A DNA stretch of 63,581 nt, counting the filler, from Collodictyon triciliatum (Eukaryota), in the NCBI GenBank assembly GCA_043381765.1. It is 9 parts of 9 records of this genome, joined end to end, with 100 filler letters (N's around TTAATTAATTAA, not from the genome) between each part and the next. Parts side by side here need not be neighbours in the genome. Positions count along the whole stretch, not along the records: positions 36,801 to 44,055 come from JBHJMP010003988.1; 8 more parts are not named here. One strand, given 5' to 3'. The notes below the pieces were generated by a model. It made no database searches. It saw nothing but the letters and a program-made list of their open reading frames with translations, and was not told where the DNA came from. The position numbers were made by a program, and so were the translations under genes. This document shows, piece by piece, positions 7,265-58,862 of the stretch (position 1 is the first letter of the stretch; each line of letters starts with the position of its first letter).

Positions 7265-7364
7265 NNNNNNNNNNNNNNNNNNNNNNNNNNNNNNNNNNNN
7301 NNNNNNNNTTAATTAATTAANNNNNNNNNNNNNNNNNNNNNNNNNNNNNNNNNNNNNNNNNNNN
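7265..7364. other. Artificial scaffold linker
   Basis: N44-TTAATTAATTAA-N44; stop codons in all six frames. Confidence 0.99.
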
Positions 7365-10494: not shown

Positions 10495-11199
10495 NNNNNN
10501 NNNNNNNNNNNNNNNNNNNNNNNNNNNNNNNNNNNNNNNNNNNNNNNNNNNNNNNNNNNNNNNNNNNNNNNNNNNNNNNNNNNNNNNNNNNNNNNNNNNN
10601 NNNNNNNNNNNNNNNNNNNNNNNNNNNNNNNNNNNNNNNNNNNNNNNNNNNNNNNNNNNNNNNNNNNNNNNNNNNNNNNNNNNNNNNNNNNNNNNNNNNN
10701 NNNNNNNNNNNNNNNNNNNNNNNNNNNNNNNNNNNNNNNNNNNNNNNNNNNNNNNNNNNNNNNNNNNNNNNNNNNNNNNNNNNNNNNNNNNNNNNNNNNN
10801 NNNNNNNNNNNNNNNNNNNNNNNNNNNNNNNNNNNNNNNNNNNNNNNNNNNNNNNNNNNNNNNNNNNNNNNNNNNNNNNNNNNNNNNNNNNNNNNNNNNN
10901 NNNNNNNNNNNNNNNNNNNNNNNNNNNNNNNNNNNNNNNNNNNNNNNNNNNNNNNNNNNNNNNNNNNNNNNNNNNNNNNNNNNNNNNNNNNNNNNNNNNN
11001 NNNNNNNNNNNNNNNNNNNNNNNNNNNNNNNNNNNNNNNNNNNNNNNNNNNNNNNNNNNNNNNNNNNNNNNNNNNNNNNNNNNNNNNNNNNNNNNNNNNN
11101 NNNNNNNNNNNNNNNNNNNNNNNNNNNNNNNNNNNNNNNNNNNNNNNNNNNNNNNNNNNNNNNNNNNNNNNNNNNNNNNNNNNNNNNNNNNNNNNNNNN
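10495..11199. other. Intra-scaffold assembly gap (705 N)
   Basis: Run of N without the linker motif. Confidence 0.99.
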
Positions 11200-29344: not shown

Positions 29345-29444
29345 NNNNNNNNNNNNNNNNNNNNNNNNNNNNNNNNNNNNNNNNNNNNTTAATTAATTAA
29401 NNNNNNNNNNNNNNNNNNNNNNNNNNNNNNNNNNNNNNNNNNNN
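29345..29444. other. Artificial scaffold linker
   Basis: N44-TTAATTAATTAA-N44. Confidence 0.99.
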
Positions 29445-32221: not shown

Positions 32222-33693
32222 AATAATAGTAAGAATATCTCATTATCCATAGCCTAGTGAACCTCTCGATTCCACTCAAATGGAGTTTGAAAAATCAAAG
32301 CTATTCAAGTTCAAGAGGATATTAGAATGTTCAAACGTTGATATTGGTATTTTACTGTAATTTTTTCCAGGAATATTATTTACAGAACAATTATAAATTG
32401 TTTCACTATTTTCTATCCTTTTTTATTTTATGTATACTTATTTTCTATAAAAATATAAATATATCGATACATCCAGAGGAACTGAGAAAGCTTAGTTGGT
32501 CAGGGGTACCAGAAGAGGTCCGGCCGATGGTTTGGCAGTTGCTAATGGTGGGACAACTAGTGCTCGATAACCTAACTTTATATGTTTTCTTATGCTACAT
32601 GAATACTTTTCCCTTCCCAATTGAGTTTATTTCTTCCACCTTCCTTTTAATCACTATGCAAATACGAAACTAATTTAAAAATCAAACTAGGATTATCTGC
32701 CTTCAAATGCGGACAGAAGAACCGCTACGCTGGCCAGAAAGAGAAATGAATACGTGGAATGTCTTCATCGATATTTTGGAAAATCATCCACCGAGAAAAC
32801 AGAATATGAAGAAGTGATCTTTCGACAAGTAATTCATTCTTTCTATTAACCTGCATCTGTAGATGAGATAACAACGAACAAATGTATCATTCACCCGAAG
32901 TGCAGTGGATTTATCTCCAAAGTTGCAAATTCATGCTGTGTTATTTCCTTTCAAAATAAGAGATGATATGATAATACAATTCAATTTTGAAACGAAAGGA
33001 AATACATGTACAAACGATTCTGTCTTATTTATGTACTTTCATATGATTATTCCAAGTTGAGAACCTATTTTTTTCTTCTCCATTTCATTCATATTGTGTT
33101 TCAAAAAGATCATGTTTACAATTTTGCACTTCAGATTCACATAGATATGCCCCGAACACAGCCCACTGTACCGCTTTTCCAACAAACCGTAGTCCAAGAA
33201 GTAAATTATCGTAAAAATATATCCAAAAATGATAGGACATCTTACATACATACACATTTTGCGAAAGAATTCAATTTTTCACATTTTCTTCGACCATTAT
33301 CAGTTCTTTCAATTGACATTTTCCTCTTCATCTCAAAACCATGTAAATTGCAGTCGCTGGAAAGGATTTTGTACGTTTGGTCCATAAGACACCCTGCCAG
33401 CGGGTATGTCCAAGGAATTAACGATGTAGTCACACCTTTTTTTGTAGTCTTCTTGTCGCAGTACGTTGGTAAGATACTTCTTACATATTGAAACATTCAT
33501 GACGCATTAACATCGCAATACCGTCATTCAACTTTTTATTTCTCTCACCTATCGACGCACATTTATTAGAAGGAGATGTGATGCAATACGATGTCAGTGA
33601 GCTCCCTAAAGAAACCCTTTCTATTGTGGAGGCTGATAGCTACTGGTGCTTGACAAAACTACTGGATAACATCCACGTATGAAGTGCTTCTAT

Positions 33694-33775
<82 letters not shown>

Positions 33776-34597
33776 CTTTCTATCCCCTTTTTTTCGATGG
33801 AGTTCTTGAAAAATGCCATTTTTATAAATGTTTTTTTTTTTTGAATGTGCTCTTTTACTTCCTTCTTTATGCTTCATCGGTGTTGATAAATTCATTTTTT
33901 TTTAAAGGACAACTACACCTTTGCCCAGCCTGGCATCCAAAGGCAGGTACATCGCCTTAAAGAATTAATGAACAGGATAGATGGTAAATTTTCTGATTCA
34001 GAACAAAAGTTGGCATCATATTTTAGGGTACTCTGAAATAAAACAACAAAATTTCATAATTTTTCTACTCACTGTAAAGTTTGCAGTTTTTCTTTTAAAA
34101 AAATAATAAAAATTAATCCGATGACCCTTATAATATACCATTAGCTCCTTTATCGGAACATCTGGAGTTACATAGCATTGAATTTCTGCAATTTGCTTTC
34201 CGTTGGATGAATTGCCTGCTCATCAGGGAACTCTCGTTGAAATTTATCATCAGAATGTGGGATACATACATCGTGGAGGAAAATGGCTTTGTTGATTACC
34301 ATCTGTATGTCTGTGCCTCTTTTCTTCGGAGCTGGTCCGCGAAAATAAGAGAGCAAGACTTTCAGGGGACTATTATGTTCCTTCAGCACATCCCCACGCA
34401 AAACTGGGTGTTGAATGACATCGAGCTGCTTCTGTCTGATGCGTAGGTGTTCGTAATGTATTGATATCGACTCAAGGAAGATAAAGATGAATCACTAACC
34501 TCTTCCTTATACAATTTGTACTCTTTTTCCTCTGTCGTTTTCATATCTTTTTAATAGATTTATGCTTATGAGCAAGTTCCACAAACCCCCAGGATAA
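31290..34597 (+). CDS. TBC1D22: Rab GTPase-activating protein, TBC1D22/Gyp1 family
   Basis: ELRKLSWSGVP, QIHIDMPRT (IxxDxxR finger), LERILYVWSIRHPASGYVQGIND (YxQ finger), EADSYWC, DNYTFAQPGIQ, QFAFRWMNCLLIRE; stop at 34595-34597. Confidence 0.95.
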
Positions 34598-36700: not shown

Positions 36701-36800
36701 NNNNNNNNNNNNNNNNNNNNNNNNNNNNNNNNNNNNNNNNNNNNTTAATTAATTAANNNNNNNNNNNNNNNNNNNNNNNNNNNNNNNNNNNNNNNNNNNN
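36701..36800. other. Artificial scaffold linker
   Basis: N44-TTAATTAATTAA-N44. Confidence 0.99.
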
Positions 36801-37459: not shown

Positions 37460-37558
<99 letters not shown>

Positions 37559-37700
37559 CTAAAGAGCTTCTAATATAGACGTTCACGAAAATTTCATCCT
37601 CATGAACATTCAATACAAATTCATAGCCGAGTCAAATTTATTTTTATTGAGATAATCTTATTGAGTTTTCTTATCAGCCCGGGGTTGATATAGTTTTGAC

Positions 37701-40700
37701 CTATAATCTTCTAAAATATTTTCTGGTGCCATTATCCTCTTCATCTTCTCCCAAAAAATCATCAAACCCCCCGTCAAGTACTTGAATCGAAGTATACTTT
37801 CGCTTGGACTATCGAAAAATATTAGTTTAGTGGTGAGATATCTCACTTTATTTCTCTCTCTGAAAATTAATGATTCACCTCATACCTCCACCACCTCGTG
37901 CGAGTTGAGAGGGAGAATAAAAATAAAAATAACTCACCTCACACGAACCGTCAAAGGTCTCGATAGAGGCAGTTTCTTATCCCAATACGGGGGGTAAGAA
38001 GATATATTAGTAGATATATTTTGAACACACACGAATATTCAAACGAACTAGCAGTAGAAAAATCTTTGGGCCTATCAATATCTCATCTACCTGATTCATC
38101 ATCTCCAGTGCTTTGGACTAAAAGTTCTTGTAATTCAAACGTTCCCATCAAGAGATTCTCATGAAGAAACCCACAGAATATATCCAAACCACAGGGGCAA
38201 CTGATTTCATATTTGGGTACCTCAAAATCTGTATCTGATGATATGAACAAAGCGCCGATGAGCGCACTCGTTATGCTTTTGTGCGAGTGAAGCTCATCAG
38301 AGTCTTTCATGCTTGAGAGAAACCTTTTCATTTTTTGTCTCTTGCTATCTCCTGAAATAGTGGATTTTGGTCCCTTCTCAGATTTAGAATGGCATTCATC
38401 GGCTACAAGCTCAGAAAAATTTGATTTTTCCAACATTTTTCTAAAAGATCTCTTATGAATCGACAGAATTCTTGATTTGTGAAGCATAGACTCGTCAAAG
38501 TCAGGAAATATGCAATACAAATGATTACTAACAACCAGTTTTGTTACTGAATCACCAAGAATAATCATTTGTTCATAAGAAAACTGTATGGGAGGACTAT
38601 CAGGGAATGAAATACTCCTCCATGTTAGGTAATCAGAATACTGCAGTGCCTAGTGGAAATTATCAGTTAATATCGTAATCATCACGGTTTAAAAGGAATG
38701 AGTAAGGAAGTGCATTTTTTTTTTTAAAAAAAGTTCTATTCTCAGTTGTTCTAGTCCAAGTAATTCTTACACATAGGATGAGTCCAATGGAAGGTAAATC
38801 GAAGGGGAAAATTGAGGAGATGAAGTCTATTACTTCGGGAAATTTTGATCCTGGCATTGAGTTGATCATATCAAATGCAAGGAGTTAAAGAAATACTTAC
38901 AATATGGATATGTTATCCATTTATCAAAGCAAGAAGTTTATTTAAAATCATGACCCACTGCATTCATCTTCTTCATGAAGGAAGTGTGAAAATGTTTGAC
39001 AGCTCAATAAATTATATGGGTTACAGGTACGCTGGTTCAATATATATTCGCTGCAAAAGTCGTGAGATTTTAAAAACCCCTGATCAAGAAATATACACCC
39101 TGAATAATTTAGATGATTAAGCTCTGAATTGAGATATGTGTGACATGCATAAACTTGAAGCGAATCCATGATCTGATTCGGTTAACTCAACTCATCATGA
39201 GTAATTGAAGGCTACATGAGCAATTATAGCCCATGAAGTATCATACATATTATGATTGTCTTACCTATGAAGCTTTCTAAAGCATCTCCGCTTAATTTTT
39301 TGATACCTGTTTTATCCTTTTCGTTACTAAGAATAACTTTATCCAAGTTCAGTTGTTGGGACACTTGTTGAAGATTCTGTATTTTTCAGATAAAGAGGAG
39401 GTATATATCTTAATAATTGTATAAACATGGGGTGATTCTCATCAAATTGTGATGATAAAAAATACTTTGAATAAATTGATGGTTATCGCAAAAATCATTT
39501 GGTTGAAGGATGAATAAATACCTTGTTGTTTACAACCAACGACCTTTTTTGAAACAATTTTGAGAGATTATAATTCCGATTTGAATGTAATAATGATACG
39601 ATTACAGATAAATCTAAAACGCCATCCCCTAGAAACTCAAGGCGTTGATTACTATAATCTGAAGACTTAAATATTCGATCATGCGTTATATCGCTGAAAG
39701 CTGAGGCATAATTCGACGTAGTTAATGCCTTATGAAAGAGCAAACTGTTAATAGCTGTTAATAACTGATAAAGTGGTTTCAAGACTTTTCAAAATGTAAT
39801 ATGAAGATTATCATTAGTCATTCTTCTTTTTTCTTTTGCAAGATATGGAGAAAGTATATGGCGATGGAGCTATTGAGTTTTACCTGCCTTAGCAATAGCC
39901 TATTTCGTATTTTAATTTCGACAAAGTCTTCCAATTTAGTTACATTTTCGAAAAAATAACATTCATCTTTCAATATAGCACATAGCTTTGAAAGTAAAAA
40001 CGAATAGTGTGACACCTCCGTTGAAAAATTAGTCAATACCAAAAATTCGATGGGAGTTGAACATATTCCATCGTAGGCCAAATTTTCTGGGTTATCTTTA
40101 AATGAACAGAGCTAATAATGAAAAGCAACATGTCAATAACCTTTTATTGGATGATTTACTTCAAAATATCAGATAGAAAGGGTGATGGTGACGGTGGCGA
40201 AGGTGATGGGGGTATGAAACAAAATAAACCTTTTCATCCCAACTTCGAAGAAAAGAACAATTAGGCAAGGGAATGAGAGTAGAAATGGGTTGGTGTTCAT
40301 CTACAATCAGAGGACAGTATGAATCCTGGCCGTCTTGGTTTTCGATATAGTCAACCAAGTAACTTATTCTATCGAGAGGCCTCCAAAGATTGTGGACATT
40401 GAAAATTGAGTATGCATTTGATTTCTTTAAAACACTGACAATTCTGCCAGTATCCAATTCAGAAATATTCCACCCAAAGTTTGGTTCAGGAAAGCCTCGA
40501 TTGCTACAAGAAATTTTTTGAGAAGGATTGAACGTATTAAACCCTTTCTCTTCCATTTCCAGTAGCCTCATGATTCTCTGCTCTATCAAAAGAGGTGAAG
40601 CAAGAGGAAAATTTTCTCTGACTATTTTTTGGTGAAGAAGCTCGATGAATGATTTCTTGACATCTTCAAAGCCAACGATATCTCCTATGTAATCTTCTAA

Positions 40701-42966
40701 ATCTATGGGATCTGCAAATTTCTTTTCATAAGGAATGGGAATGCGAATTTGGAGGTTCATCAATACATCACTAAATGTATAGTTTTGATTCATCATGCCG
40801 TATTTTGGAAGAATAAAACAAAACATAGATTCGTATTGGTCGACTAAATTCAAGTAAGAAGGAAGGGCGAAATGAAGAAAAAAATGAAAAGAAAGTCTCA
40901 ACTTTCGCCTCATGTATTCATCGAAAGTAATTTCACCACTCCTTTTCAAGGAGACCATTATGTTTTTTTCATTATGATTAATCTCAAAGACCGGAATATT
41001 CAGCGGGATTGGAGAGAGTATCACAAATCCCTGAAATCTGCTCCCCATTTTTGAATGCAAGGAGCATGGCTTGTATGGTGGATCTAGCTGTATATGATGA
41101 ATATACATAGTTATGGACACATCCGGGGAAAGCGTTTCAACCTGATTTAATCTTCTAGTATCTTTAATCGATACGGTCGATTCCAATAAATCAGAGATGT
41201 ACGTATCTTTCTCAAATGGTATTGCGTCAAAGTGTAATTTCGGAAGATCTCTTATAACATGACCTCGATCCAAAGTAAGGAATGGATATCGAGTGAGCAG
41301 GTACTGACACGCCGCCAGAGCGACTGCTTTCTGAGAGGTTTTTTTTCTTTGATAGGACTCAGGGATGCATATACGAATAGAACCCTCGGTAAGAGGGATC
41401 AATATCGAGGGACAGAATCGTGGTGCATTACCGGATGAAACTTGCTTAATATCGTATATTGGATGCAATGAATTGTTTACTTTACCAATTCTTCTTACTG
41501 GAGTATCTTGAAGCAATTTGTGCGATGATAGCTGACTGTAAATTTTTATTAAAATCATGGGTATCATATTTAGTACATTCGTGTTGATTCCCACAGTACC
41601 GATGCTGATGATGTCCTCATTTTCTGAGTCATGAATTTGCATATCATGTATATCTGGATTCTCATCAGCAGAATCAGAAACACGATGCCTTCGCGGGTCA
41701 TTGTCGAATTCATAGTTGAGCTTACCACCTTGATCATCGTACCCGCGCAAAGATGAATGTATCTTAACGTCGCACGGGATTTCATCCCATTCGAGAGGGT
41801 TAAAATCATGCGAAGAAGGCAGTGTTCCATCTGACATTTTGAAGAAATGCTGACAAAGAGCAAGATACATATAACCTTTGGCACTTTCTTTGTCAGGGGA
41901 CTGAAGAGTGGTCTCCAAACTAATGGAGCGGTCTGAGAAATATATTTCACAGAAGCATGTGAATCGTAGACCCTCGCTAGTCATACATTTCTTTATGTGG
42001 ATTGGAAAAGGCAGTTGTTGCTGGGAATCTGGTGAATTTGAATAGGAACGCAGTAGAATACCCTCCTCAGCGAGTGTGTTAGCCCATCGGCGTAGAGTGC
42101 CCTCAGCCAACGTGTGTAAGTAATATTCTTCGTTGGTGGATCTAGTAGCGAGTTTGCAGTTTAACGCCGAAGGCTGACCTTGCCATTCGTTTGGAGAGCC
42201 ACTCCTTCCCTCGCTTCCACTCGAAACCTTTCCTGCGTCAACCACTTTAAAACTCGGCGAAGAGCTTAACACAGACTTATCCAAAAGACACTGACGGGCA
42301 TCTGGGTAATGATCGTATATGTGCTTGCATGCTATGCGGAAGGCCTGGAAAAAAGCGTGCTGAAGCGTCGGACTGTTTTTGCGCAGTGATAATATGATAG
42401 GCGCCCCACGCAGAGGCAGGGTCACAGAGACCTGAAAAGTTGCTGCGCCTGTGGTTTCCCGTATTTCAATCAGTCGAAGGGGACCTGAGAGGTCATGTTG
42501 CGGCACTCGCTCCAGAAGGTTCAGCGAGTTCAGCATCCTGATCATCTGGTAGAATCCTTCGGCCAGCACAGCAAACTCCTTGTTGTGGGACACTTGATCA
42601 TAGACCCAGGCCTCCGACACCTCCACCAGCCCGCAATATCCTGACTGGGCAGCGCGCTGCGTCAGCTTTTTCGAGGGCACCATAATTTTGATAATGTAGG
42701 CTTTGCCTAGTTCACTTGGGATAAGCTTCCAGAAGAGCGTCTGGAAAAGATAGCTCCTCTCGCTCGCCCCTACGTTTCCAAGCCCCTGTTGCCAGCACGA
42801 AAAAAAATTATAATTTCCAGATTTATTCTAGAGATGGTGGAACGCGTTTTAAGGTTTTATAAAGACGCGGCGGTTCGCATGTTCGACAGGGTTGTTTTAC
42901 AAATGCAGAAGCGGCGCATTAAACCGCTATGTGTGGTGGCGCTGGCGACGCTGCAAAGAAGGTCAT
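37701..42966 (-). CDS. Helicase-less Dicer-like protein: dsRBD/DUF283-like repeats, degenerate PAZ, RNase IIIa, degenerate RNase IIIb (start uncertain)
   Basis: RNase IIIa LLLRQ|ALT..NQRLEFLGDG..VNNK|NL..KLSGDALESFI|GCIFLDQG; RNase IIIb LILC|ALQ..YEQMIILGDS..KSITSALIGALF; PAZ-like DEHQP and connector PIEF..LLSKL. Last exon ends RKYFRRL*. The frame extends upstream of 42683 to an acceptor near 42787; first exon tentative (ATG 42966). Confidence 0.85.
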
Positions 42967-44025: not shown

Positions 44026-44055
44026 GTAAGCTTCTCGCCCTGCAACCACACACCC

Positions 44056-44155
44056 NNNNNNNNNNNNNNNNNNNNNNNNNNNNNNNNNNNNNNNNNNNNT
44101 TAATTAATTAANNNNNNNNNNNNNNNNNNNNNNNNNNNNNNNNNNNNNNNNNNNN
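44056..44155. other. Artificial scaffold linker
   Basis: N44-TTAATTAATTAA-N44. Confidence 0.99.
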
Positions 44156-51410: not shown

Positions 51411-51510
51411 NNNNNNNNNNNNNNNNNNNNNNNNNNNNNNNNNNNNNNNNNNNNTTAATTAATTAANNNNNNNNNNNNNNNNNNNNNNNNNNNNNNNNNN
51501 NNNNNNNNNN
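51411..51510. other. Artificial scaffold linker
   Basis: N44-TTAATTAATTAA-N44. Confidence 0.99.
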
Positions 51511-52418: not shown

Positions 52419-55400
52419 ATGGATCTCGATGCGCTCCAGCAAGCTATCCTGTGTCTCTTTGACCCGTCTACGCCTCCACAAACCAAACAAAGTGCCGAGG
52501 CCTACTGCAGCCAGGTTTTTTCTCCCTTGATTTCCACTATCCTTGCTCATGGAAAGACCCAAAAAATCAGTCTATTCCTAGTTGTTTTTCTTTTGCTACT
52601 ATCGACACAAAGTATTTTATCCAGTTCCACTACCACGCTAACTTTCCTCTCCTGGTAGGTGCGACAGAGTGCTCAACTATGGAGTGTTTCGTGGGCGCTT
52701 TACACAGACGCATCCAAGCAAAGCGAGATTAGATTTTGGGCCTTGAATGAACTGACGCAGTTTGTTCGGGATACATCAAAGTAGTTTTTTTTTTTTGATT
52801 TGCAGACATATTTTTTCTGACAATATTTTGATTCCATGTGGTTGATTACGTCATTTACGATACGATTAAGTCTTAGTCCATCTTGTTGTGGAGTTTAACC
52901 TGAACTTACCCGTAACGTATAAACCAGATACGCGACCCTTCCCGAGGAGTCTCGTGTCATAATTCGAGAGAATCTGATATTACAGTTGCGAAACCTGCCC
53001 CCTCAAGAACAAATATGTAAAACATTTACTCTACCGAATGCTTCACATCCTCTGCTACTTGCCCATATAAATAACTTCTTCCTTCTCTGTGAGAATAACT
53101 ATTGGACTTACGCGCCCATCCCTTTAGATATAAAAAACAAATTTGCAGCCTTAATCGTGTTAGTGTTGAAAGTAGACTACCCAGAGGTTGCAATTCCTAT
53201 CTCATTGCATATATTATCTTATGAGACATCCTTCCAACTATTCTTGCTAATTTGATCATAAAATATACATTCATTCGCATGATTGGGTGTTCAAGGTACA
53301 AAAGCTAAACAGTTCGCTACTTCTAATACCTCTAGAGATGGGAGGGCGCCTTTCGTGAAATATTCGAGACTCTGCACCACGGGCCTCTAATGATTGACAT
53401 GTTTCTTCGGATTCTCAACATAATCGATGAAGAAATAGTTCAGTTCCACATAAGCAGGACACTCTCCGAAGTTACCCACAACACGCTAATAGTCTGTTCT
53501 CACTTTGATACCGTTACCCCCAATACCTCCACAACTTTTTGCATGTTTGTCAATCCAATTATTTCATTTTAACTCTGTTTATCGTGATATCATCAATCCT
53601 TGATTAAATTCATCTAGAAAGACACGATGCGGGCCGGCGTCCTGGAAAACATTTCAAATGCGGTCTATGAGATAGTTGTAACATATCAGGGATGCCTTCC
53701 CGACATCGCTGTGTCGTGCTTGAACTCGTTTGAAAAGTACATCGGTAATATTTTATTTCAAAGCACTTGGACCCAAAAATACCAAGAGACAATATTCTCA
53801 TTATTTATTTAACTATTTCATTGACGCTGTCATGGGCTTAAATAGGGTGGATTGAGCTACCCCTCACTGCAAACGGTAGGATGGTTCCCCTTCTCTTTGG
53901 TTTACTCCAGAACCCAGCATTGAGAGAGGCTGCCTGCAATTGTATTCGAGAGGTAGCAAGCTTAGTTTTTGTTCAATTTTGTCAACTACTAACTCTTTCT
54001 GATCTATTTTCCTCTGCATCAAAAAATTCACTTTTCCTTACTCTGGCATTTCACCAGTTGGTGGTCAAAGGAATGGACAGTCAAACCCGAGTGGCTCTTT
54101 ACCAGGGGCTCCAACTGCAGTCAAACTTGAATCAATATATTCAGGTGAGCTATTTTTTTTTTTTTGCATGTGAAAATTAACAGATACGTTTTTTAGTTTT
54201 GTATGTATGTATGTATGTATGTATGTATGTATGTATGTATGTATGTATGTATGTATGTATGTATGTATGTATGTATGTATGTATGTATGTATGTATGTAT
54301 GTATGTTTTTTTCACCTTCTGTAAAAGAGAATATATAACCTATTTTTTGAATACAATCATTACATAAGCCTTCCGTCTAAAAAAAGCTTCAAGGTATTGT
54401 TTCAGATGGTATTGATCAAGAAGAAAAGGGTTACCAATCATTCTTTTTTCACTTTAAAGGGGGACGACTATGATTTTCATGAAAAGATAGCCGAGATTAT
54501 AACCTCGGCCTCGCAGGAGCTATTACAAATTTGTATTGAGGTAAGCACCCATCTAAACTACATTACAAGAAGCCAAGACTTAAGCAGGAGCAATATGCTA
54601 ATCGTTTATGATGTGCCTGTAGGTGAACAGAGATGACCCGAGTTCAGTTTCTGGTGAGTATTCTATAACTTAAGCATGTACTCCTCCTTCTTTCCGCTGT
54701 CGGGTTTTAAAATGATTATCGAAAGTGTTTATGTGAACCTGCAACTAGAAAATATTATTGAATTATCCAACAAAATACTTACTTTTCGTCCCTTTCGCAA
54801 TTCTTCTCATCTTTAGGAAATATTTTTATATCCCTTCCTTTTTTCTAACCAAAACCTTTCAGCTGCCGCCAGGGCTTACGATTTAGTCTTTGAGTATCTT
54901 CCCAGTTTGTATGCATTATTCGGCTCAGATTCTGATGACGTTTGTGAAATGTGTCAGCCATTTGTGGAAGATTTGCTGCAATACGTAACGAACTCCATAT
55001 ATCCATTATGCTCCGTCATACACTCGTGATTATGTTGGTTGAACGCACCTGAAGATAATGTTGAATTCAAGATAGCAAACACGTCATACGAATCGTTTGT
55101 CTAGCTGAAGAAATTCGCACGAGGTGCCAAGGAGATCGATGTGATTCAAAAGCTCCTCATAATTATATCAAACAAAATTCGATTTGATGAAGACTACAAC
55201 TTTGACGAACCAGAAGATTCGGAAGAACAATTTGATGAGTTTAGAAGTGTAATACACTTTTTTTCCTTCTACTAATATTTATTTTCTATTTCTATTTTCT
55301 TAAAATTTGCAAATGACAAATGATGTATCTTTTGGTTGCTTTTCCCAGAGTATCAGTTCGATTTTCAAGAATCTCTCAAAGCTCGCTCCGGAATACACTA

Positions 55401-58400
55401 TCCACATGATTGGCCAAGTGCACTTTATAACCTATGCATAATTATGGAATCGGCATCTGCCTAACCTGTTTTCTTGTGGTTCCCTTCCGAAACACAAAAC
55501 ATTTCTCTATGTATATATTCCTCCTAAATTTCGTCATTTGTTAAAAGATAATTTCCAGTTCGCTCAACCAGCCCACAGACAATGGGTTTCAAACTGTCGA
55601 ATCTGGATTGTTTCTCCTTTATCAATTCGGAGAGGGGTTGTCTGGTAATTTTTTTATTTACCATTTCTATTTTAATTAAAAAAAAAGGAGCCCGCTTACA
55701 TATAAAAAATGTTGAAAGCTGTACTACTATCCATCGTCATATTGGATGATGAAAAGTGATGCAATTGAAATGATGGTCTGTTATCATGAAAAAAAATCAC
55801 TCCTTAAATTGTATTCTATTAATTCATGTGTGTAGAGGACCTGGTAAAGCCTAATGGAGGCTTGGTTCCAATTATGACCATGTTGTCGACATCAGGTTAG
55901 ATTTTCAAGTAATTATAATATGGCATTCCAAACGCGTCCTTATTTTTTTTTATCTATATACCTCAATCCTTTATACCATAAACCAGAGCTCGCATCGCAC
56001 CCACATTCAGCAGTATTAGACATGTTTTACGAAAATGTCACGCGCTACAACCGATTTTTCATCCACCATCCCCAATACATCCCTGCCGTATTATCCTGCT
56101 TCTTAGGCACTAGGTAATCGCCTTAAATGAAGCTGACCGTTGCTGATGTTTTCCTCTATACTTCTCAATATTCTGCGCTGAATCTAAACCTCTAAATATG
56201 CATATTTTCACATAGCGGCATAAGACACCCTTCAGAAAAAATTCGGAGCCGAGTCTGTATCTTATTTGCGAGATTCTTGAAGAGCATTAAAGGATCCGTC
56301 CATCCGTATCTCGAGAATATGTTGACAAATTTGAGAGTACACTTTCATTACCATTGAACATAACAATATGCGTTTGCAGTCTGGCACCCATTTCCCTTCA
56401 ATAGAGTTTGTAATTTTTATTACTTGACCTTTACCTTGATAAAAATTCTATCTTTGTGGGTTTAAATACAGGAATGTTTGATTATATCTCTTCAACCCGT
56501 CCCCAACTTTATGTCTCATGAGGAACAAGTAATGTAGCATAGAATTTTTGGATATTGTCATATCATTTTCTTTCTCTTACATTTACTTATTCTCTGAAAT
56601 CCTCTTTCTTACAGAAACTCTAGATGCTTTATAATCTGCCTCTTTTATGGCCTTCTTTCTTACCACCATTTTGGGCAGGCTCAAGTTTTTCAGGCTGTCG
56701 GGTCATTGATTGGTACTGAATTGATTCCACCGCAAATGCAAGAGCACTATTTAGAAGTAAGACTCAATACTGTGCACTCACTATTTTCCTCTAGCACATC
56801 ACATATTAAACTACCATAAAATAATGATACGATAAATGGAGTTTACTATTTAGCAATTCTGAGCTCTGTTATGAAGCTATATTTCTGTAAAAGCTCAAGG
56901 TATACCACGCATAAAATTAGGCTATTATTACACCCATTCTGGCCCAGATCGAGCCATTAGCAAATAAGGAGCCATTTGCCAAAAACATTCCGCAAACAAT
57001 TATTCTATCACAACAGATATGCCACATAATAAACTCTGTAGGGCTGTTCAGCAAAGGTGCTTCTTAAGCGTCCTATCTTTTTCTCCTCTTATCTGTATGT
57101 TTCTTTAACCCCTCTGATTGGACTTGCCCGTTTTTTGTGCAGGATTCCCGAGAGTCGTTGCCAACAGCCGTCCATCAGTTATATCCTGCTTCAAGAAATC
57201 GTTAGCAGTCATCGTGTCTCTCATGAACCCATTCAGCAACGTCTCGGAAGTGCAGGAGAAGGTATATTAAACCATTCTGCAACTTTTGAGCATGCTTTCT
57301 TTTCCTTTTCTCACCAAGCATGCATTCAATTGCGGCCTATTCATGAACGCATGTATCACTAAACAAATTAGATTATATCTTTCATGCACCGGATGGTCGA
57401 TACTATCGGTGAATGTGTGACTGAGTTTGTTCCAAATGCCTTGACAATTCTGTTCTCATCTGAAACGCCCGTGTTTGTGGAGCTTATTCGACTGATTAAC
57501 CAGTTCCTCGGAAAATTTCCTGTAACTTTTTTTAATGAGAAATATGTGACTTTCAATCTTCCTATCCTCATGAATGTACTCAACATTTTTGATCAAAAAT
57601 TGACACTTTTTTTTTTTTTGTTAATTATACTCTCGTTATTTACATACTTTGTACTTCCAAGACACGGATTCACGGAATTGTGGAAGAGCTTTTTCTTTCT
57701 ATTCTGGGTCGGATAACTAGTTTGCAGCAGCCGCAAATATCCCAACTACGGAATACGTATGATTCACAATAATTCATTTCACATACAATACTTTATCGGT
57801 GGAGATGTCATTCTGAATTAACCCCTCAGCACCAATTTGAATAAACAGAATCATAATAAACCGTTTTGCCTATTTGCTCAAACCATTTGTATCTGAATGA
57901 TATGTATCCAATACGAACAGAGAGACTGAACGAGAGCGTCTAGAGCTTAAAAGGCTCATGTTCCAGTATATCCAAGCTGTCACATCCAACAGTCCTGACA
58001 TTCTCCTGACAGAGCGTAGGATTTCGCAAATGCCTGAAAAATATTTCCGCATATTAGTTACTGTCGCTCCTTTCTACATCCCATTTCTGATTAAATAACG
58101 ACATGGTATACAATACACATCTTATGCATAGGAAACTCGGCGCAGCTCATGCCTATTATCAGCATGGTTGTACAGAATCTTGTGGAAGAGCGAGAGATGG
58201 CTATTCGCAAGATATGCTGCTTTATGCTGAACAAGATGGTTCAGGAGTGGACAGGCCCTGGCGCCAACAAGTTTCCGGCGTTCTCTCAATATGTCTTTGA
58301 GACCATCGTCCCGGCTCTGTTTGGAAGCCCCGCACATCCAAACTTCGACACTTCGGATGCGATGTGTATTGGGGTGAGGCCTTCGCACTTTGACCGTTCA

Positions 58401-58619
58401 TATATATGTCTCTTTAGTTGACAAATACTTTCTCGCTTTGTCGAAGAGTCAAAGTCTCTACCGTCGCACAGTAGAGCATGGTGATAATCAGAGTCCATCA
58501 CACTCTTTACCTCTGCGCAGGTCTGGAATGAGCTATCTAATCTGCAGGTGCTGCTGTTTTCAAAGTTTGGTGAAACGTATCTCATTTACTTGCGGGACAA
58601 CCTCTTCCCTAGAATCGAG
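52419..58619 (+). CDS. XPOT: Exportin-T (tRNA exportin; Los1/PAUSED), 3'-truncated
   Basis: About 25 GT-AG exons. MDLDALQQAILCLFDPS..KQSAEAYCSQ, IKNKFAALIV..DYPE|RW, IDMFLRILNIIDEEIV, NTLI|KDTMR, YI|GWIEL, LVVKGMD, FYENVTRYNRFF, GIRHPSEKIRSR, SFMHRMVDTIG. Confidence 0.92.
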
Positions 58620-58762: not shown

Positions 58763-58862
58763 NNNNNNNNNNNNNNNNNNNNNNNNNNNNNNNNNNNNNN
58801 NNNNNNTTAATTAATTAANNNNNNNNNNNNNNNNNNNNNNNNNNNNNNNNNNNNNNNNNNNN
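58763..58862. other. Artificial scaffold linker
   Basis: N44-TTAATTAATTAA-N44. Confidence 0.99.

What the first reader, a model, noticed from the sequence alone, without database searches (positions are those of the whole stretch)
38230..39730. Dicer-like enzyme with an intact RNase IIIa and a catalytically dead RNase IIIb: a natural nickase?
Seen: RIIIa keeps all four acidic metal ligands (NQRLEFLGDG ~39620-39650; KLSGDALESFIG ~39265-39300). RIIIb reads YEQMIILGDS (~38547-38577) and HKSITSALIGA (~38250-38285), so E>I, D>S and E>S remove three of four ligands while the structural residues and reading frame are kept. Established: the two RNase III domains of Dicer/Drosha form an intramolecular dimer and each cuts one strand; RIIIb ligand mutants of human DICER1 cut only one arm. 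Inference: the protein would nick dsRNA or hairpins on one strand, or need a partner, implying non-canonical small-RNA biogenesis.
Basis: partly seen in the sequence, partly recalled or inferred. Interest (0 to 1): 0.75.

Follow-up and report, generated by a model that had tools for sequence, protein, structure and literature searches.

The report
Dicer-like gene with dead second nuclease
A protist gene encodes a Dicer-like RNA-cutting enzyme whose first nuclease domain is intact and whose second has lost its metal-binding residues, a design already known from a giant virus and several other protists, so it probably cuts only one RNA strand.

Summary
A seven-exon minus-strand gene (CDS 42683-38083, about 1250 aa) carries two RNase III domains. 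RIIIa (exons 3-5) keeps E/D/D/E. RIIIb (one exon, 38649-38083; Pfam PF00636, E 1.1e-11) reads I/D/S/S at the same four columns, whereas 17 of 17 comparison RNase III domains read E/D/D/E. No other RNase III-like piece exists in any frame of the window, so alternative splicing within the window cannot restore the site. The only close relative found, a Diphylleia rotans transcript (41% identity, E 4.5e-33), is degenerate at the same columns (L/E/N/Q), so the loss is old and the domain has been kept. Contigs of two public runs carry a GT..AG joint, a poly-T end and the in-frame stop, which points to a spliced, polyadenylated transcript. "Dicer-like" is only partly met: tandem RNase III, a weak platform and a weak DUF283 signal, but no detectable PAZ, helicase or C-terminal dsRBD. 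A single-strand "nickase" is the likeliest mechanism but is inferred. The idea is not new: Mimivirus R343 (assayed), Paramecium Dcl1, Naegleria and diatom Dicers and editosome pseudo-RNase III partners are precedents. Verdict: real, ordinary-to-moderately interesting, a new member of a known kind.

The parts
37624..42683 (-). Whole transcription unit as modelled: start codon at 42683, poly(A) site near 37624
   Evidence: Gene model. 3' end from the poly-T loose end at 37624 in a contig of run X2. AATAAA lies 15-25 nt upstream. An upstream exon beyond 42827 cannot be excluded, because the block ends at 44055.
40230..42683 (-). Exon 1 (818 codons): N-terminal region of unknown family, DUF283-like piece, platform-like piece
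   Evidence: Open frame 42827-40161. ATG at 42683 and GT donor after 40230. Contigs of run X1 lie on 40851-42474 in pieces without joints.
41295..41468 (-). Weak Dicer dimerisation (DUF283, dsRBD-like) match
   Evidence: PF03368 E 0.034 on the whole exon and E 0.0031, 17.9 bits against a cut-off of 23.7, on the piece 41253-41522. Atlas look-alikes carry Dicer_dimer at scores of 0.79, which is a lead only.
40917..41111 (-). Platform-like stretch
   Evidence: BLASTP to residues 4-68 of P0003 (Thecamoeba Dicer-like protein with a Pfam PAZ), E 2e-4 for that single comparison. A collinear second piece (query residues 257-283) falls in P0003's PAZ but only at E 2.1. A small home-made profile hits the same stretch at E 0.0083.
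39884..40111 (-). Exon 2 (76 codons), linker before RIIIa
   Evidence: AG/GT sites and frame only. No contig covers it.
39522..39764 (-). Exon 3: RIIIa first half, signature NQRLEFLGDG (E 39638-39636, D 39626-39624)
   Evidence: PF00636 E 3.3e-6, 28.2 bits against a cut-off of 27. Own HMM E 6.6e-12. Codons checked.
39265..39376 (-). Exon 4: RIIIa second motif GDALES (D 39286-39284, E 39277-39275)
   Evidence: Joined exons 3-4-5 align without a break to canonical domains. Codons checked.
39031..39099 (-). Exon 5: end of RIIIa (CIFLDQG... last helix)
   Evidence: The phase-1 junction gives ...ESFIG|CIFLDQG, matching the canonical ...GAIYLD block.
38771..38850 (-). Exon 6: short linker between the two domains
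   Evidence: The exon 6/7 junction (…GLILC|ALQY…) matches the continuous …GIVLCALQY… of transcript-derived P0001.
38083..38649 (-). Exon 7: RIIIb pseudo-nuclease domain and stop (TGA 38085-38083). I 38565-38563, D 38553-38551, S 38277-38275, S 38268-38266
   Evidence: PF00636 E 1.1e-11. PDB alignments. AF2 model with 18-row alignment, pLDDT 69, pTM 0.66. 50 of 50 listed VIA rows are RNase III-fold chains, best Z 9.7 to Giardia Dicer. Contigs with no differing letters cover 38080-38466.
37809..37937 (-). Intron in the 3' UTR (129 nt, GT..AG on the minus strand), 146 nt after the stop
   Evidence: Joint 37808/37938 'skips 129, CT..AC' in one contig each of X1 (side 28) and X2 (side 185).

Best explanation
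This is a real, transcribed gene for a helicase-less Dicer/Drosha-type (tandem) RNase III protein of about 1250 residues.

Its first nuclease domain (RIIIa) has a complete metal-binding site. Its second (RIIIb) is a conserved pseudo-nuclease. It keeps the RNase III fold, the interface glycine of the signature motif and basic residues of the RNA-binding helix. It has lost three of the four acidic ligands, including the glutamate equivalent to E. coli E117.

The most likely mechanism is as follows. As in every solved tandem RNase III, the two domains pair within one polypeptide to form one dsRNA-binding cleft. Only the RIIIa half of that cleft can hydrolyse, so the enzyme cuts one strand of a duplex or hairpin. 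By analogy with Dicer, that is the strand carrying the 3' end. The other strand is left intact, or is left to another factor.

Shown: the domains, the substitutions, their presence in one ortholog, the intact frame, and contigs with a joint and a poly-T end.

Inferred: loss of RIIIb catalysis (near-certain from family knowledge), intramolecular pairing, single-strand cleavage, and any link to small RNAs.
For: - Motifs and ligand columns. 17 of 17 comparison domains read EDDE; RIIIa reads EDDE; RIIIb reads IDSS.
- RIIIb is a true RNase III domain: PF00636 E 1.1e-11, and a model whose 50 of 50 listed structural matches are RNase III-fold chains, best Z 9.7, rmsd 3.1 over 104 residues.
- Ortholog: of 13 proteins with E<=0.001 among 1.84 billion representatives, only P0001 is close (E 4.5e-33, 41% identity). 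It is a Diphylleia rotans transcript. It reads L,E,N,Q at the four columns and keeps the glycine and much of the core, with 78 invariant columns. The site was therefore lost before the two lineages split, and the domain has been maintained since.
- No substitute exon: 3 of 1974 six-frame pieces of the window match an RNase III profile, and all three are in the model.
- Intact gene: seven exons, all with GT..AG, 1250 codons, one stop.
- Transcript-like contigs from 2 runs of 1 study: a GT..AG joint on the minus strand, a poly-T loose end at 37624, adapter-like loose ends, and no differing letters over the stop.
- Family knowledge, from passages read: each RNase III domain cuts one strand, RIIIa the 3' arm and RIIIb the 5' arm (PMC7827160). 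DICER1 RIIIb mutations disrupt 5'-arm cleavage (PMC6695490, abstract). Mimivirus R343, with an intact first and a ligand-less second domain, was proposed to nick the hairpin and cleaved it in vitro (PMC4402537). [quoted passage not shown]
Against: - No biochemical or small-RNA data exist for this protein.
- Only one ortholog was found. It lacks the RIIIa part, so it is unknown whether the 'one live, one dead' arrangement is conserved as a pair.
- Exons 2-6, which include all of RIIIa, are supported by splice signals, frame and homology only. No contig was laid on 38485-40785.
- D33, the E. coli D45 equivalent, is retained in RIIIb, so residual metal binding is conceivable.
- Intramolecular pairing could not be modelled, because the spliced RIIIa sequence is not accepted by the folding tools.
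- RIIIa could instead pair with RIIIa of a second molecule and cut both strands, as budding-yeast Dcr1 does.
- The runs are only guessed to be RNA.
- The ortholog carries a C-terminal dsRBD that this protein lacks, so the two may not work identically.
Confidence: 0.55

Rival explanations
1. The protein dimerises through RIIIa-RIIIa contacts between two molecules, as bacterial RNase III and budding-yeast Dcr1 do. It then has two live sites and makes ordinary double-strand cuts. RIIIb is an accessory RNA-binding or spacing module.
For: Single-domain 'non-canonical Dicers' act as homodimers (PMC7827160, passage). RIIIa here has all four ligands. The protein lacks a C-terminal dsRBD, so RIIIb might have taken over a binding role.
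Against: In all solved tandem enzymes that matched (Giardia Dicer, Drosha, DCL3, animal Dicers) the two domains pair intramolecularly (PMC7827160, passage). RIIIb and its ortholog keep the signature-motif glycine that the KREPB4 work ties to dimerisation (PMC5648035). The inter-domain linker is short, about 25 residues.
Confidence: 0.2
2. RIIIb, or the whole protein, pairs with a separate RNase III protein encoded elsewhere. The working enzyme is then a hetero-oligomer whose second cut is supplied in trans.
For: Enzyme-pseudoenzyme RNase III pairs are the proposed rule in trypanosome editosomes (PMC5648035, passages).
Against: No other RNase III-like sequence is present in the window. However, the window is a string of unlinked ~7.3-kb blocks and the genome is not held, so this says little either way.
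Confidence: 0.1
3. The protein is mainly a non-catalytic RNA-binding or scaffolding factor, and the intact RIIIa ligands are a leftover.
For: Degenerate RNase III domains serve structural roles in mitoribosomal mL44 and editosome proteins, which appear among the structural matches (9hcg_c, 7o9m_c, 9dei_D).
Against: All four RIIIa ligands and the whole signature are canonical, while the RIIIb ligands drifted. This asymmetry is what selection on RIIIa catalysis predicts.
Confidence: 0.1
4. The locus is a decaying pseudogene or an assembly or annotation artefact.
For: The window is a draft built from short blocks. One homopolymer difference from the contigs lies at 37989 in the 3' UTR. A 3'-UTR intron 146 nt after the stop is the kind of feature that can trigger nonsense-mediated decay (recalled knowledge).
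Against: There are 1250 codons over seven exons without a stop, all with GT..AG. Contigs with a joint and a poly-T end agree with the window across RIIIb and the stop. A 41%-identical expressed ortholog has the same degenerate columns.
Confidence: 0.05

Closest known systems
Mimivirus R343 / Megavirus Mg559 tandem RNase III-like protein (PMC4402537, passages read)
   Same: [quoted passage not shown] Catalytic and metal-binding residues are conserved in the first domain and metal ligands are lost in the second. It was proposed to act as a monomer that nicks rather than excises, and it cleaved a hairpin in vitro.
   Different: It is viral and each RNase III domain is followed by a dsRBD. It has no long N-terminal region and works in mRNA 3'-end formation. 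No sequence kinship to the window protein was found (not among the 13 hits).
Paramecium tetraurelia Dcl1 (PMC5871716, passage citing Lepere et al. 2009)
   Same: [quoted passage not shown]
   Different: It is a recent paralog of an active Dcl2, with no known role. Here the degenerate state is shared by two distant protists, so it is old. Homology to the window protein was not tested.
Naegleria gruberi DCR3, diatom DCRs, Trichoplax DCL2b, Albugo DCL2 (PMC4791657, passage)
   Same: Dicer homologs in which the ExxGD and/or DxxE motifs of one RNase III domain vary naturally. This was noted at sequence level only.
   Different: They belong to other lineages and carry other substitutions. None appeared among the close hits. 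Their supplementary alignments could not be seen.
Trypanosoma brucei editosome KREN1-3 with KREPB4/5 (PMC5648035, passages)
   Same: A live RNase III domain is proposed to pair with a pseudo-RNase III domain that keeps the interface glycine, so that one strand (mRNA) is cut and the other (guide RNA) is spared.
   Different: The two halves are separate proteins in a 20S complex, and the setting is mitochondrial RNA editing. Here the halves are fused.
Human DICER1 RIIIb hotspot mutants (PMC6695490, abstract)
   Same: Loss of RIIIb metal ligands leaves RIIIa working, so only one hairpin arm is cut.
   Different: These are somatic disease mutations in a full Dicer with helicase, PAZ and dsRBD, not an evolved state.
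Giardia intestinalis Dicer (PDB 2ffl), the 'minimal Dicer'
   Same: It is helicase-less with tandem RNase III domains and no C-terminal dsRBD. It is the best structural match of the RIIIb model (Z 9.7).
   Different: Both Giardia domains are catalytic and it has a clear platform-PAZ. Here PAZ is not detectable and RIIIb is dead.

Membership tests
RNase III domain (Pfam PF00636) | Profile match above the curated cut-off | tested here: met
   RIIIb ORF scores 45.8 bits against 27, E 1.1e-11. RIIIa exon 3 alone scores 28.2 bits against 27, E 3.3e-6.
RNase III domain (Pfam PF00636) | All-helical RNase III fold | tested here: met
   RIIIb model has pLDDT 69 and pTM 0.66. 50 of 50 listed VIA rows are RNase III-fold chains, with Z 9.7 to 7.4. 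Foldseek E-values were weak, best 0.043. RIIIa was not folded.
Catalytically competent RNase III domain | Four acidic metal ligands (E. coli E41, D45, D114, E117 equivalents; numbering recalled) | tested here: met
   RIIIa: E, D, D, E.
Catalytically competent RNase III domain | The same four ligands in the second domain | tested here: not met
   RIIIb: I, D, S, S. Ortholog P0001: L, E, N, Q. 17 of 17 comparison domains: E, D, D, E.
Dicer (tandem RNase III with PAZ) | Two RNase III domains in one polypeptide | tested here: met
   Gene model. Junctions inside and between the domains are supported by homology.
Dicer (tandem RNase III with PAZ) | PAZ domain | tested here: inconclusive
   No Pfam PAZ match at E<=5 on the last 301 residues of exon 1. 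Only a collinear BLASTP piece at E 2.1 falls in the PAZ of P0003. No PDB sequence hit for exon 1 at E<=10.
Dicer (tandem RNase III with PAZ) | Platform domain | tested here: inconclusive
   BLASTP E 2e-4 to the N-terminus of P0003, a single comparison. Own profile E 0.0083. No Pfam Dicer_platform match.
Dicer (tandem RNase III with PAZ) | DUF283 / Dicer dimerisation domain | tested here: inconclusive
   PF03368 E 0.034 and 0.0031, at 17.9 bits below the 23.7-bit cut-off. Atlas leads at 0.79.
Dicer (tandem RNase III with PAZ) | N-terminal helicase (present in most, absent in Giardia and others) | tested here: not met
   No helicase family at E<=1 in exon 1. An upstream exon beyond 42827, or beyond the block end at 44055, is not excluded.
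Dicer (tandem RNase III with PAZ) | C-terminal dsRBD | tested here: not met
   The stop at 38085-38083 is confirmed in contigs. tblastn with the dsRBD part of P0001 finds nothing at E<1 in the window. The ortholog P0001 does have one (PF00035).
Tandem RNase III 'nickase' (R343 type) | Live first domain, ligand-less second domain | tested here: met
   Definition taken from PMC4402537 passages.
Tandem RNase III 'nickase' (R343 type) | Single-strand cleavage of a duplex or hairpin | not testable with these tools
   Needs an enzyme assay.

The most novel reading that the evidence does not exclude
A lineage of free-living protists, comprising this organism and the collodictyonid Diphylleia, has kept for a very long time a Dicer-type enzyme built as a one-sided cutter. 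This enzyme is their route to small RNAs. It releases only the 3'-end strand from hairpins or RdRP products, giving intrinsically strand-specific small RNAs without a passenger strand. The pseudo-domain may have gained a new metal (zinc) site from the conserved H/C...CxCG...H residues, which would stabilise it in place of the lost catalytic metals.
Probability: 0.25. Interest if true: 0.65.

Novelty: new member of a known kind. Interest (0 to 1): 0.4.

Why it matters
If the enzyme really cuts one strand, it would be a cellular counterpart of the viral R343 design and of the disease-mutant form of human DICER1, kept by evolution. It would show that a Dicer-type enzyme with a single active centre can be a stable, selected solution. 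It would also give a tractable protein for asking how one-sided cleavage feeds a small-RNA or RNA-processing pathway. As it stands it adds one more lineage, with evidence of age and of transcription, to a list of degenerate second domains that have been noticed repeatedly but, for cellular proteins, never assayed in the papers I searched and read.

Tried and rejected
- Whole genome: not held, so other RNase III, Argonaute or RdRP genes could not be sought.
- Word-indexed protein searches: RIIIb ORF against longer proteins and exon-1 residues 400-888 found nothing. P0001 as query found only itself.
- Metagenome scan with the RIIIb/P0001 alignment: 218 pattern matches, none confirmed.
- Earlier findings by place and by sequence: nothing.
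- Sequencing runs: no RNA holder is listed; 3 runs of one study are guessed to be RNA. X3 laid nothing. No contig was laid on 38485-40785 or 42475-42900, so exons 2-6 have no read support.
- First fold of RIIIb with a 2-row alignment was useless (pLDDT 36.7).
- Foldseek on the better model gave no match at E<=0.001, although every listed row was an RNase III-fold chain.
- Exon 1 against PDB sequences: 0 hits at E<=10.
- A home-made platform-PAZ profile from 7-8 fetched Dicers gave only E 0.0083 on the platform-like stretch.
- Two N-terminal stretches that look dsRBD-like by eye gave no Pfam dsrm match at E<=10. Atlas look-alikes for residues 1-400 are dsRBD-type clusters at 0.82-0.88, which is a lead only.
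- No dsRBD remnant lies downstream of the stop.
- Rfam: 0 families in the window.
- A complex prediction of RIIIa with RIIIb was not run, because RIIIa is split over three exons and spliced sequences are not accepted by that tool. Sending fragments would not have been a fair test.
- dN/dS could not be computed, because the only ortholog is available as protein only.
- I considered and rejected an intron at 38221 (GT after ...DTDFE) and a donor at about 38090. A contig runs through both.
- Literature. 'Diphylleia' plus 'Dicer' returned two unrelated papers. I found no paper on this protein, but supplements were closed and subscription journals are not searched.
Full report
**What is in the sequence**

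The finding lies on the minus strand of an AT-rich eukaryotic stretch with GT..AG introns. A stop-to-stop frame of 888 codons (42827-40161) is followed by short open pieces that carry RNase III motifs. I built a seven-exon model in a script:

| Exon | Coordinates |
|---|---|
| 1 | 42683-40230 |
| 2 | 40111-39884 |
| 3 | 39764-39522 |
| 4 | 39376-39265 |
| 5 | 39099-39031 |
| 6 | 38850-38771 |
| 7 | 38649-38083 |

- All introns are GT..AG. The joined frame is 1250 codons with a single terminal stop.
- The junctions within RIIIa (exons 3/4/5) give a domain that aligns without breaks to canonical RNase III domains.
- The exon 6/7 junction (…GLILC|ALQY…) matches the continuous …GIVLCALQY… of a transcript-derived homolog.
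- Junctions 1/2 and 2/3 rest on splice signals and frame only.

**Check of the observation**

I verified the eight ligand codons individually.

| Domain | Position 1 | Position 2 | Position 3 | Position 4 |
|---|---|---|---|---|
| RIIIa | E 39638-39636 | D 39626-39624 | D 39286-39284 | E 39277-39275 |
| RIIIb | I 38565-38563 | D 38553-38551 | S 38277-38275 | S 38266-38268 |

- Pfam scores the RIIIb ORF as Ribonuclease_3 at E 1.1e-11 (45.8 bits, cut-off 27). RIIIa exon 3 alone scores E 3.3e-6.
- HMMER alignments to solved structures put YEQMIILGDS against MERLELLGDS of DCL3 and against NERLEFLGDA / QRMEFLGDS of Drosha. They put KSITSALIGA against Drosha's ANCFEALIGA.
- In a MAFFT alignment of 20 RNase III domains, 17 of 17 domains from 11 other proteins read E,D,D,E at the four columns. 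The window's RIIIa reads E,D,D,E and its RIIIb reads I,D,S,S.

One correction applies: the RIIIb exon continues to the stop at 38083.

**Could something restore the site?**

- I translated all six frames of the whole window into 1974 stop-to-stop pieces of at least 20 residues. I searched them with a profile built from the 17 canonical domains.
- Only three pieces matched at E<=1: the RIIIb exon (3.4e-18), RIIIa exon 3 (6.6e-12) and RIIIa exon 4 (0.5).
- There is no spare RNase III exon in the window, so alternative splicing within it cannot supply an intact second site.

**Transcript evidence**

- No run on record as RNA holds the stretch. Three coded runs of one study are guessed to be RNA.
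- A 760-nt contig of X2 lies on 37938-38466 without interruption, then skips 129 nt (37809-37937; CT..AC on the plus strand, which is GT..AG on the minus strand). It continues over 37808-37624 and ends in a poly-T loose end. A contig of X1 shows the same joint.
- Loose ends at 38064, 38466 and 41940 look like the reverse complement of a template-switching adapter. This is my recollection, not a tool result.
- Together these features point to a spliced, polyadenylated minus-strand transcript. An AATAAA lies 15-25 nt before the end.
- The contigs carry no differing letters over 38080-38466. So the stop codon is real, there is no intron at 38221, and the protein ends 46 residues after the last conserved RNase III block.
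- The joint lies in the 3' UTR, 146 nt after the stop.
- These are contigs from two runs of one study. They show presence and structure, not level. Exons 2-6 are uncovered.

**Relatives**

- HMMER against 1.84 billion representative proteins found 13 with E<=0.001, and only one close: P0001 (E 4.5e-33, 41% identity over 167 residues; the next best is E 2.1e-7).
- P0001 is a transcriptome-derived protein of Diphylleia rotans from EukProt.
- It has the linker, the second RNase III domain (PF00636) and a C-terminal dsRBD (PF00035).
- At the four ligand columns it reads L,E,N,Q. It is degenerate at the same three positions with different residues, and D>E at the fourth.
- It shares 78 invariant columns with the window domain. 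These include the signature-motif glycine and a CPCG(L/F)DIF block.
- The catalytic site was therefore lost before these two lineages diverged, and the domain has been kept. This argues against recent decay.
- P0001 does not include the first domain, so the pairing 'live a / dead b' is documented only in the window.
- Three word-indexed searches and a metagenome scan added nothing.

**Fold**

- With an 18-row alignment the RIIIb ORF folds at pLDDT 69 and pTM 0.66 as a helical domain.
- Foldseek E-values are weak, best 0.043.
- Every row of the re-alignment is an RNase III-fold chain: 50 of 50 shown, with 38 of 205 chains at Z>=8.
- The best match is Giardia Dicer (Z 9.7, rmsd 3.1, 104 residues).
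- The matches include known non-catalytic relatives such as mitoribosomal mL44, an editosome chain and R3B2.

**Is it a Dicer?**

- It is a tandem RNase III protein.
- Upstream of RIIIa there is a sub-threshold Dicer_dimer (DUF283) match: E 0.034 on the exon, and E 0.0031 on a 90-residue piece at 17.9 bits against 23.7.
- A stretch (40917-41111) aligns to the N-terminal platform region of an amoebozoan Dicer-like protein, P0003, at E 2e-4 in a single comparison. P0003 itself has a Pfam PAZ domain. A collinear piece falls in that PAZ only at E 2.1.
- Language-model look-alikes point the same way but below the trust level (0.79; 0.82-0.88 for residues 1-400, all dsRBD-type).
- No helicase, no PAZ model and no C-terminal dsRBD is detectable.
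- 'Dicer-like' is therefore a fair working label, a minimal helicase-less form, but membership is only partly shown.
- An upstream exon cannot be excluded, because the assembly block ends 1.4 kb above the start codon.

**Mechanism**

Established knowledge, from passages read:
- Tandem RNase III enzymes pair their two domains intramolecularly.
- Each domain cuts one strand: RIIIa the 3' arm and RIIIb the 5' arm (PMC7827160).
- Cancer mutations of DICER1 RIIIb ligands disrupt 5'-arm cleavage (PMC6695490, abstract).

With E>I, D>S and above all E>S at the position equivalent to E. coli E117 (essentiality recalled), RIIIb cannot be expected to hydrolyse RNA.

Its retained fold, interface glycine and basic residues in the RNA-binding helix fit a role as the structural half of the cleft. 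The importance of that glycine for pseudo-domain function is shown for KREPB4 (PMC5648035).

I therefore think the protein most likely cuts a single strand (confidence about 0.55). The rivals are:
- RIIIa-RIIIa pairing between molecules, giving double cuts (0.2).
- A partner nuclease acting in trans (0.1).
- A mainly non-catalytic role (0.1).
- Pseudogene or artefact (0.05).

**Novelty**

The idea of a natural one-sided RNase III is in print.
- Mimivirus R343 has an intact first and a ligand-less second domain. It was proposed to nick the terminal hairpin of viral mRNAs, and the purified protein cleaved within the hairpin (PMC4402537, passages).
- A 2016 survey lists natural variation of these motifs in Naegleria DCR3, diatom DCRs, Trichoplax and Albugo (PMC4791657, passage).
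- Editosome endonucleases are proposed to work as enzyme-pseudoenzyme heterodimers (PMC5648035).
- Two earlier findings of this scan describe the same design in Naegleria and in Bodo saltans virus. I checked the papers behind them but not their sequence claims.

This locus is thus a new member of a known kind. What it adds is a new lineage, evidence that the dead site is ancient and maintained, and transcript-like evidence. I score interest at 0.4.

**Caveat on context**

The window is a chain of about 7.26-kb blocks joined by 100-nt spacers, and the spacing falls monotonically. This looks like size-sorted contigs. The neighbouring genes (ribonucleotide reductase small chain, RabGAP-TBC, exportin-like) therefore say nothing about this gene's genomic surroundings.

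Noticed in passing
window 7265-7364, 14627-14726, 21986-22085, 29345-29444, 36701-36800, 44056-44155, 51411-51510, 58763-58862: Eight 100-nt spacers (44 N, TTAATTAATTAA, 44 N) have spacing that falls monotonically: 7362, 7359, 7359, 7356, 7355, 7355, 7352. The window looks like size-sorted contigs strung together, so genes in different blocks need not be neighbours. There is also a 705-N gap at 10495-11199.
   Followed up: partly
window 37809-37937 (-): A 129-nt GT..AG intron lies in the 3' UTR, 146 nt downstream of the stop codon. It is seen as a joint in contigs of two runs. Such introns can mark a transcript for nonsense-mediated decay in many eukaryotes (recalled).
   Followed up: no
window 38083-38649 (-), ORF residues H43, C46, C151, C153, H163: His and Cys residues, including a CPCG block, are invariant between the window's RIIIb and the Diphylleia homolog. 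A CxCG...H block also occurs in P0009, an unnamed 165-aa RNase III with intact ligands. This may be a structural metal site; it is untested.
   Followed up: no
window 38083-38130 (-) and P0001 C-terminus: The window protein ends ...DDESGR and the homolog ends ...DESGEK. The homolog has about 150 extra residues, including a dsRBD, before that tail. No dsRBD remnant is found in the window. This could be an internal deletion or chance.
   Followed up: partly
window 41483-42683 (-), first 400 residues of the protein: No Pfam family matches, but language-model look-alikes are all dsRBD-type clusters (dsrm, Dicer_dimer, DSRM_DHX29, LIX1) at 0.82-0.88, below the trust level. Two stretches look dsRBD-like by eye but gave no Pfam match.
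   Followed up: partly
window 13058-13999 (-): Ribonucleotide reductase small chain in one open frame (PF00268, E 8e-108). It sits in a block with much higher G+C (0.53) than the rest of the window, which is about 0.33.
   Followed up: no
window 32991-33491, 34117-34446 (+); 53842-54180, 58095-58421 (+): Exon pieces of a RabGAP-TBC gene (E about 1e-11 to 1e-10) and of an exportin-like gene (Xpo1 E 2.7e-4, Exportin-T E 3e-5, both below the cut-offs).
   Followed up: no
window 37460-37560 and many other places: Long simple repeats occur throughout the window: (ATT)n just past the poly(A) site, (AGC)n giving poly-Ser at about 27100, tetranucleotide repeats, and poly-A/T at block ends.
   Followed up: no
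window 37989: There is a one-base difference in a C run between the window and the contigs of both runs, in the 3' UTR. It is probably a homopolymer error or a polymorphism.
   Followed up: no
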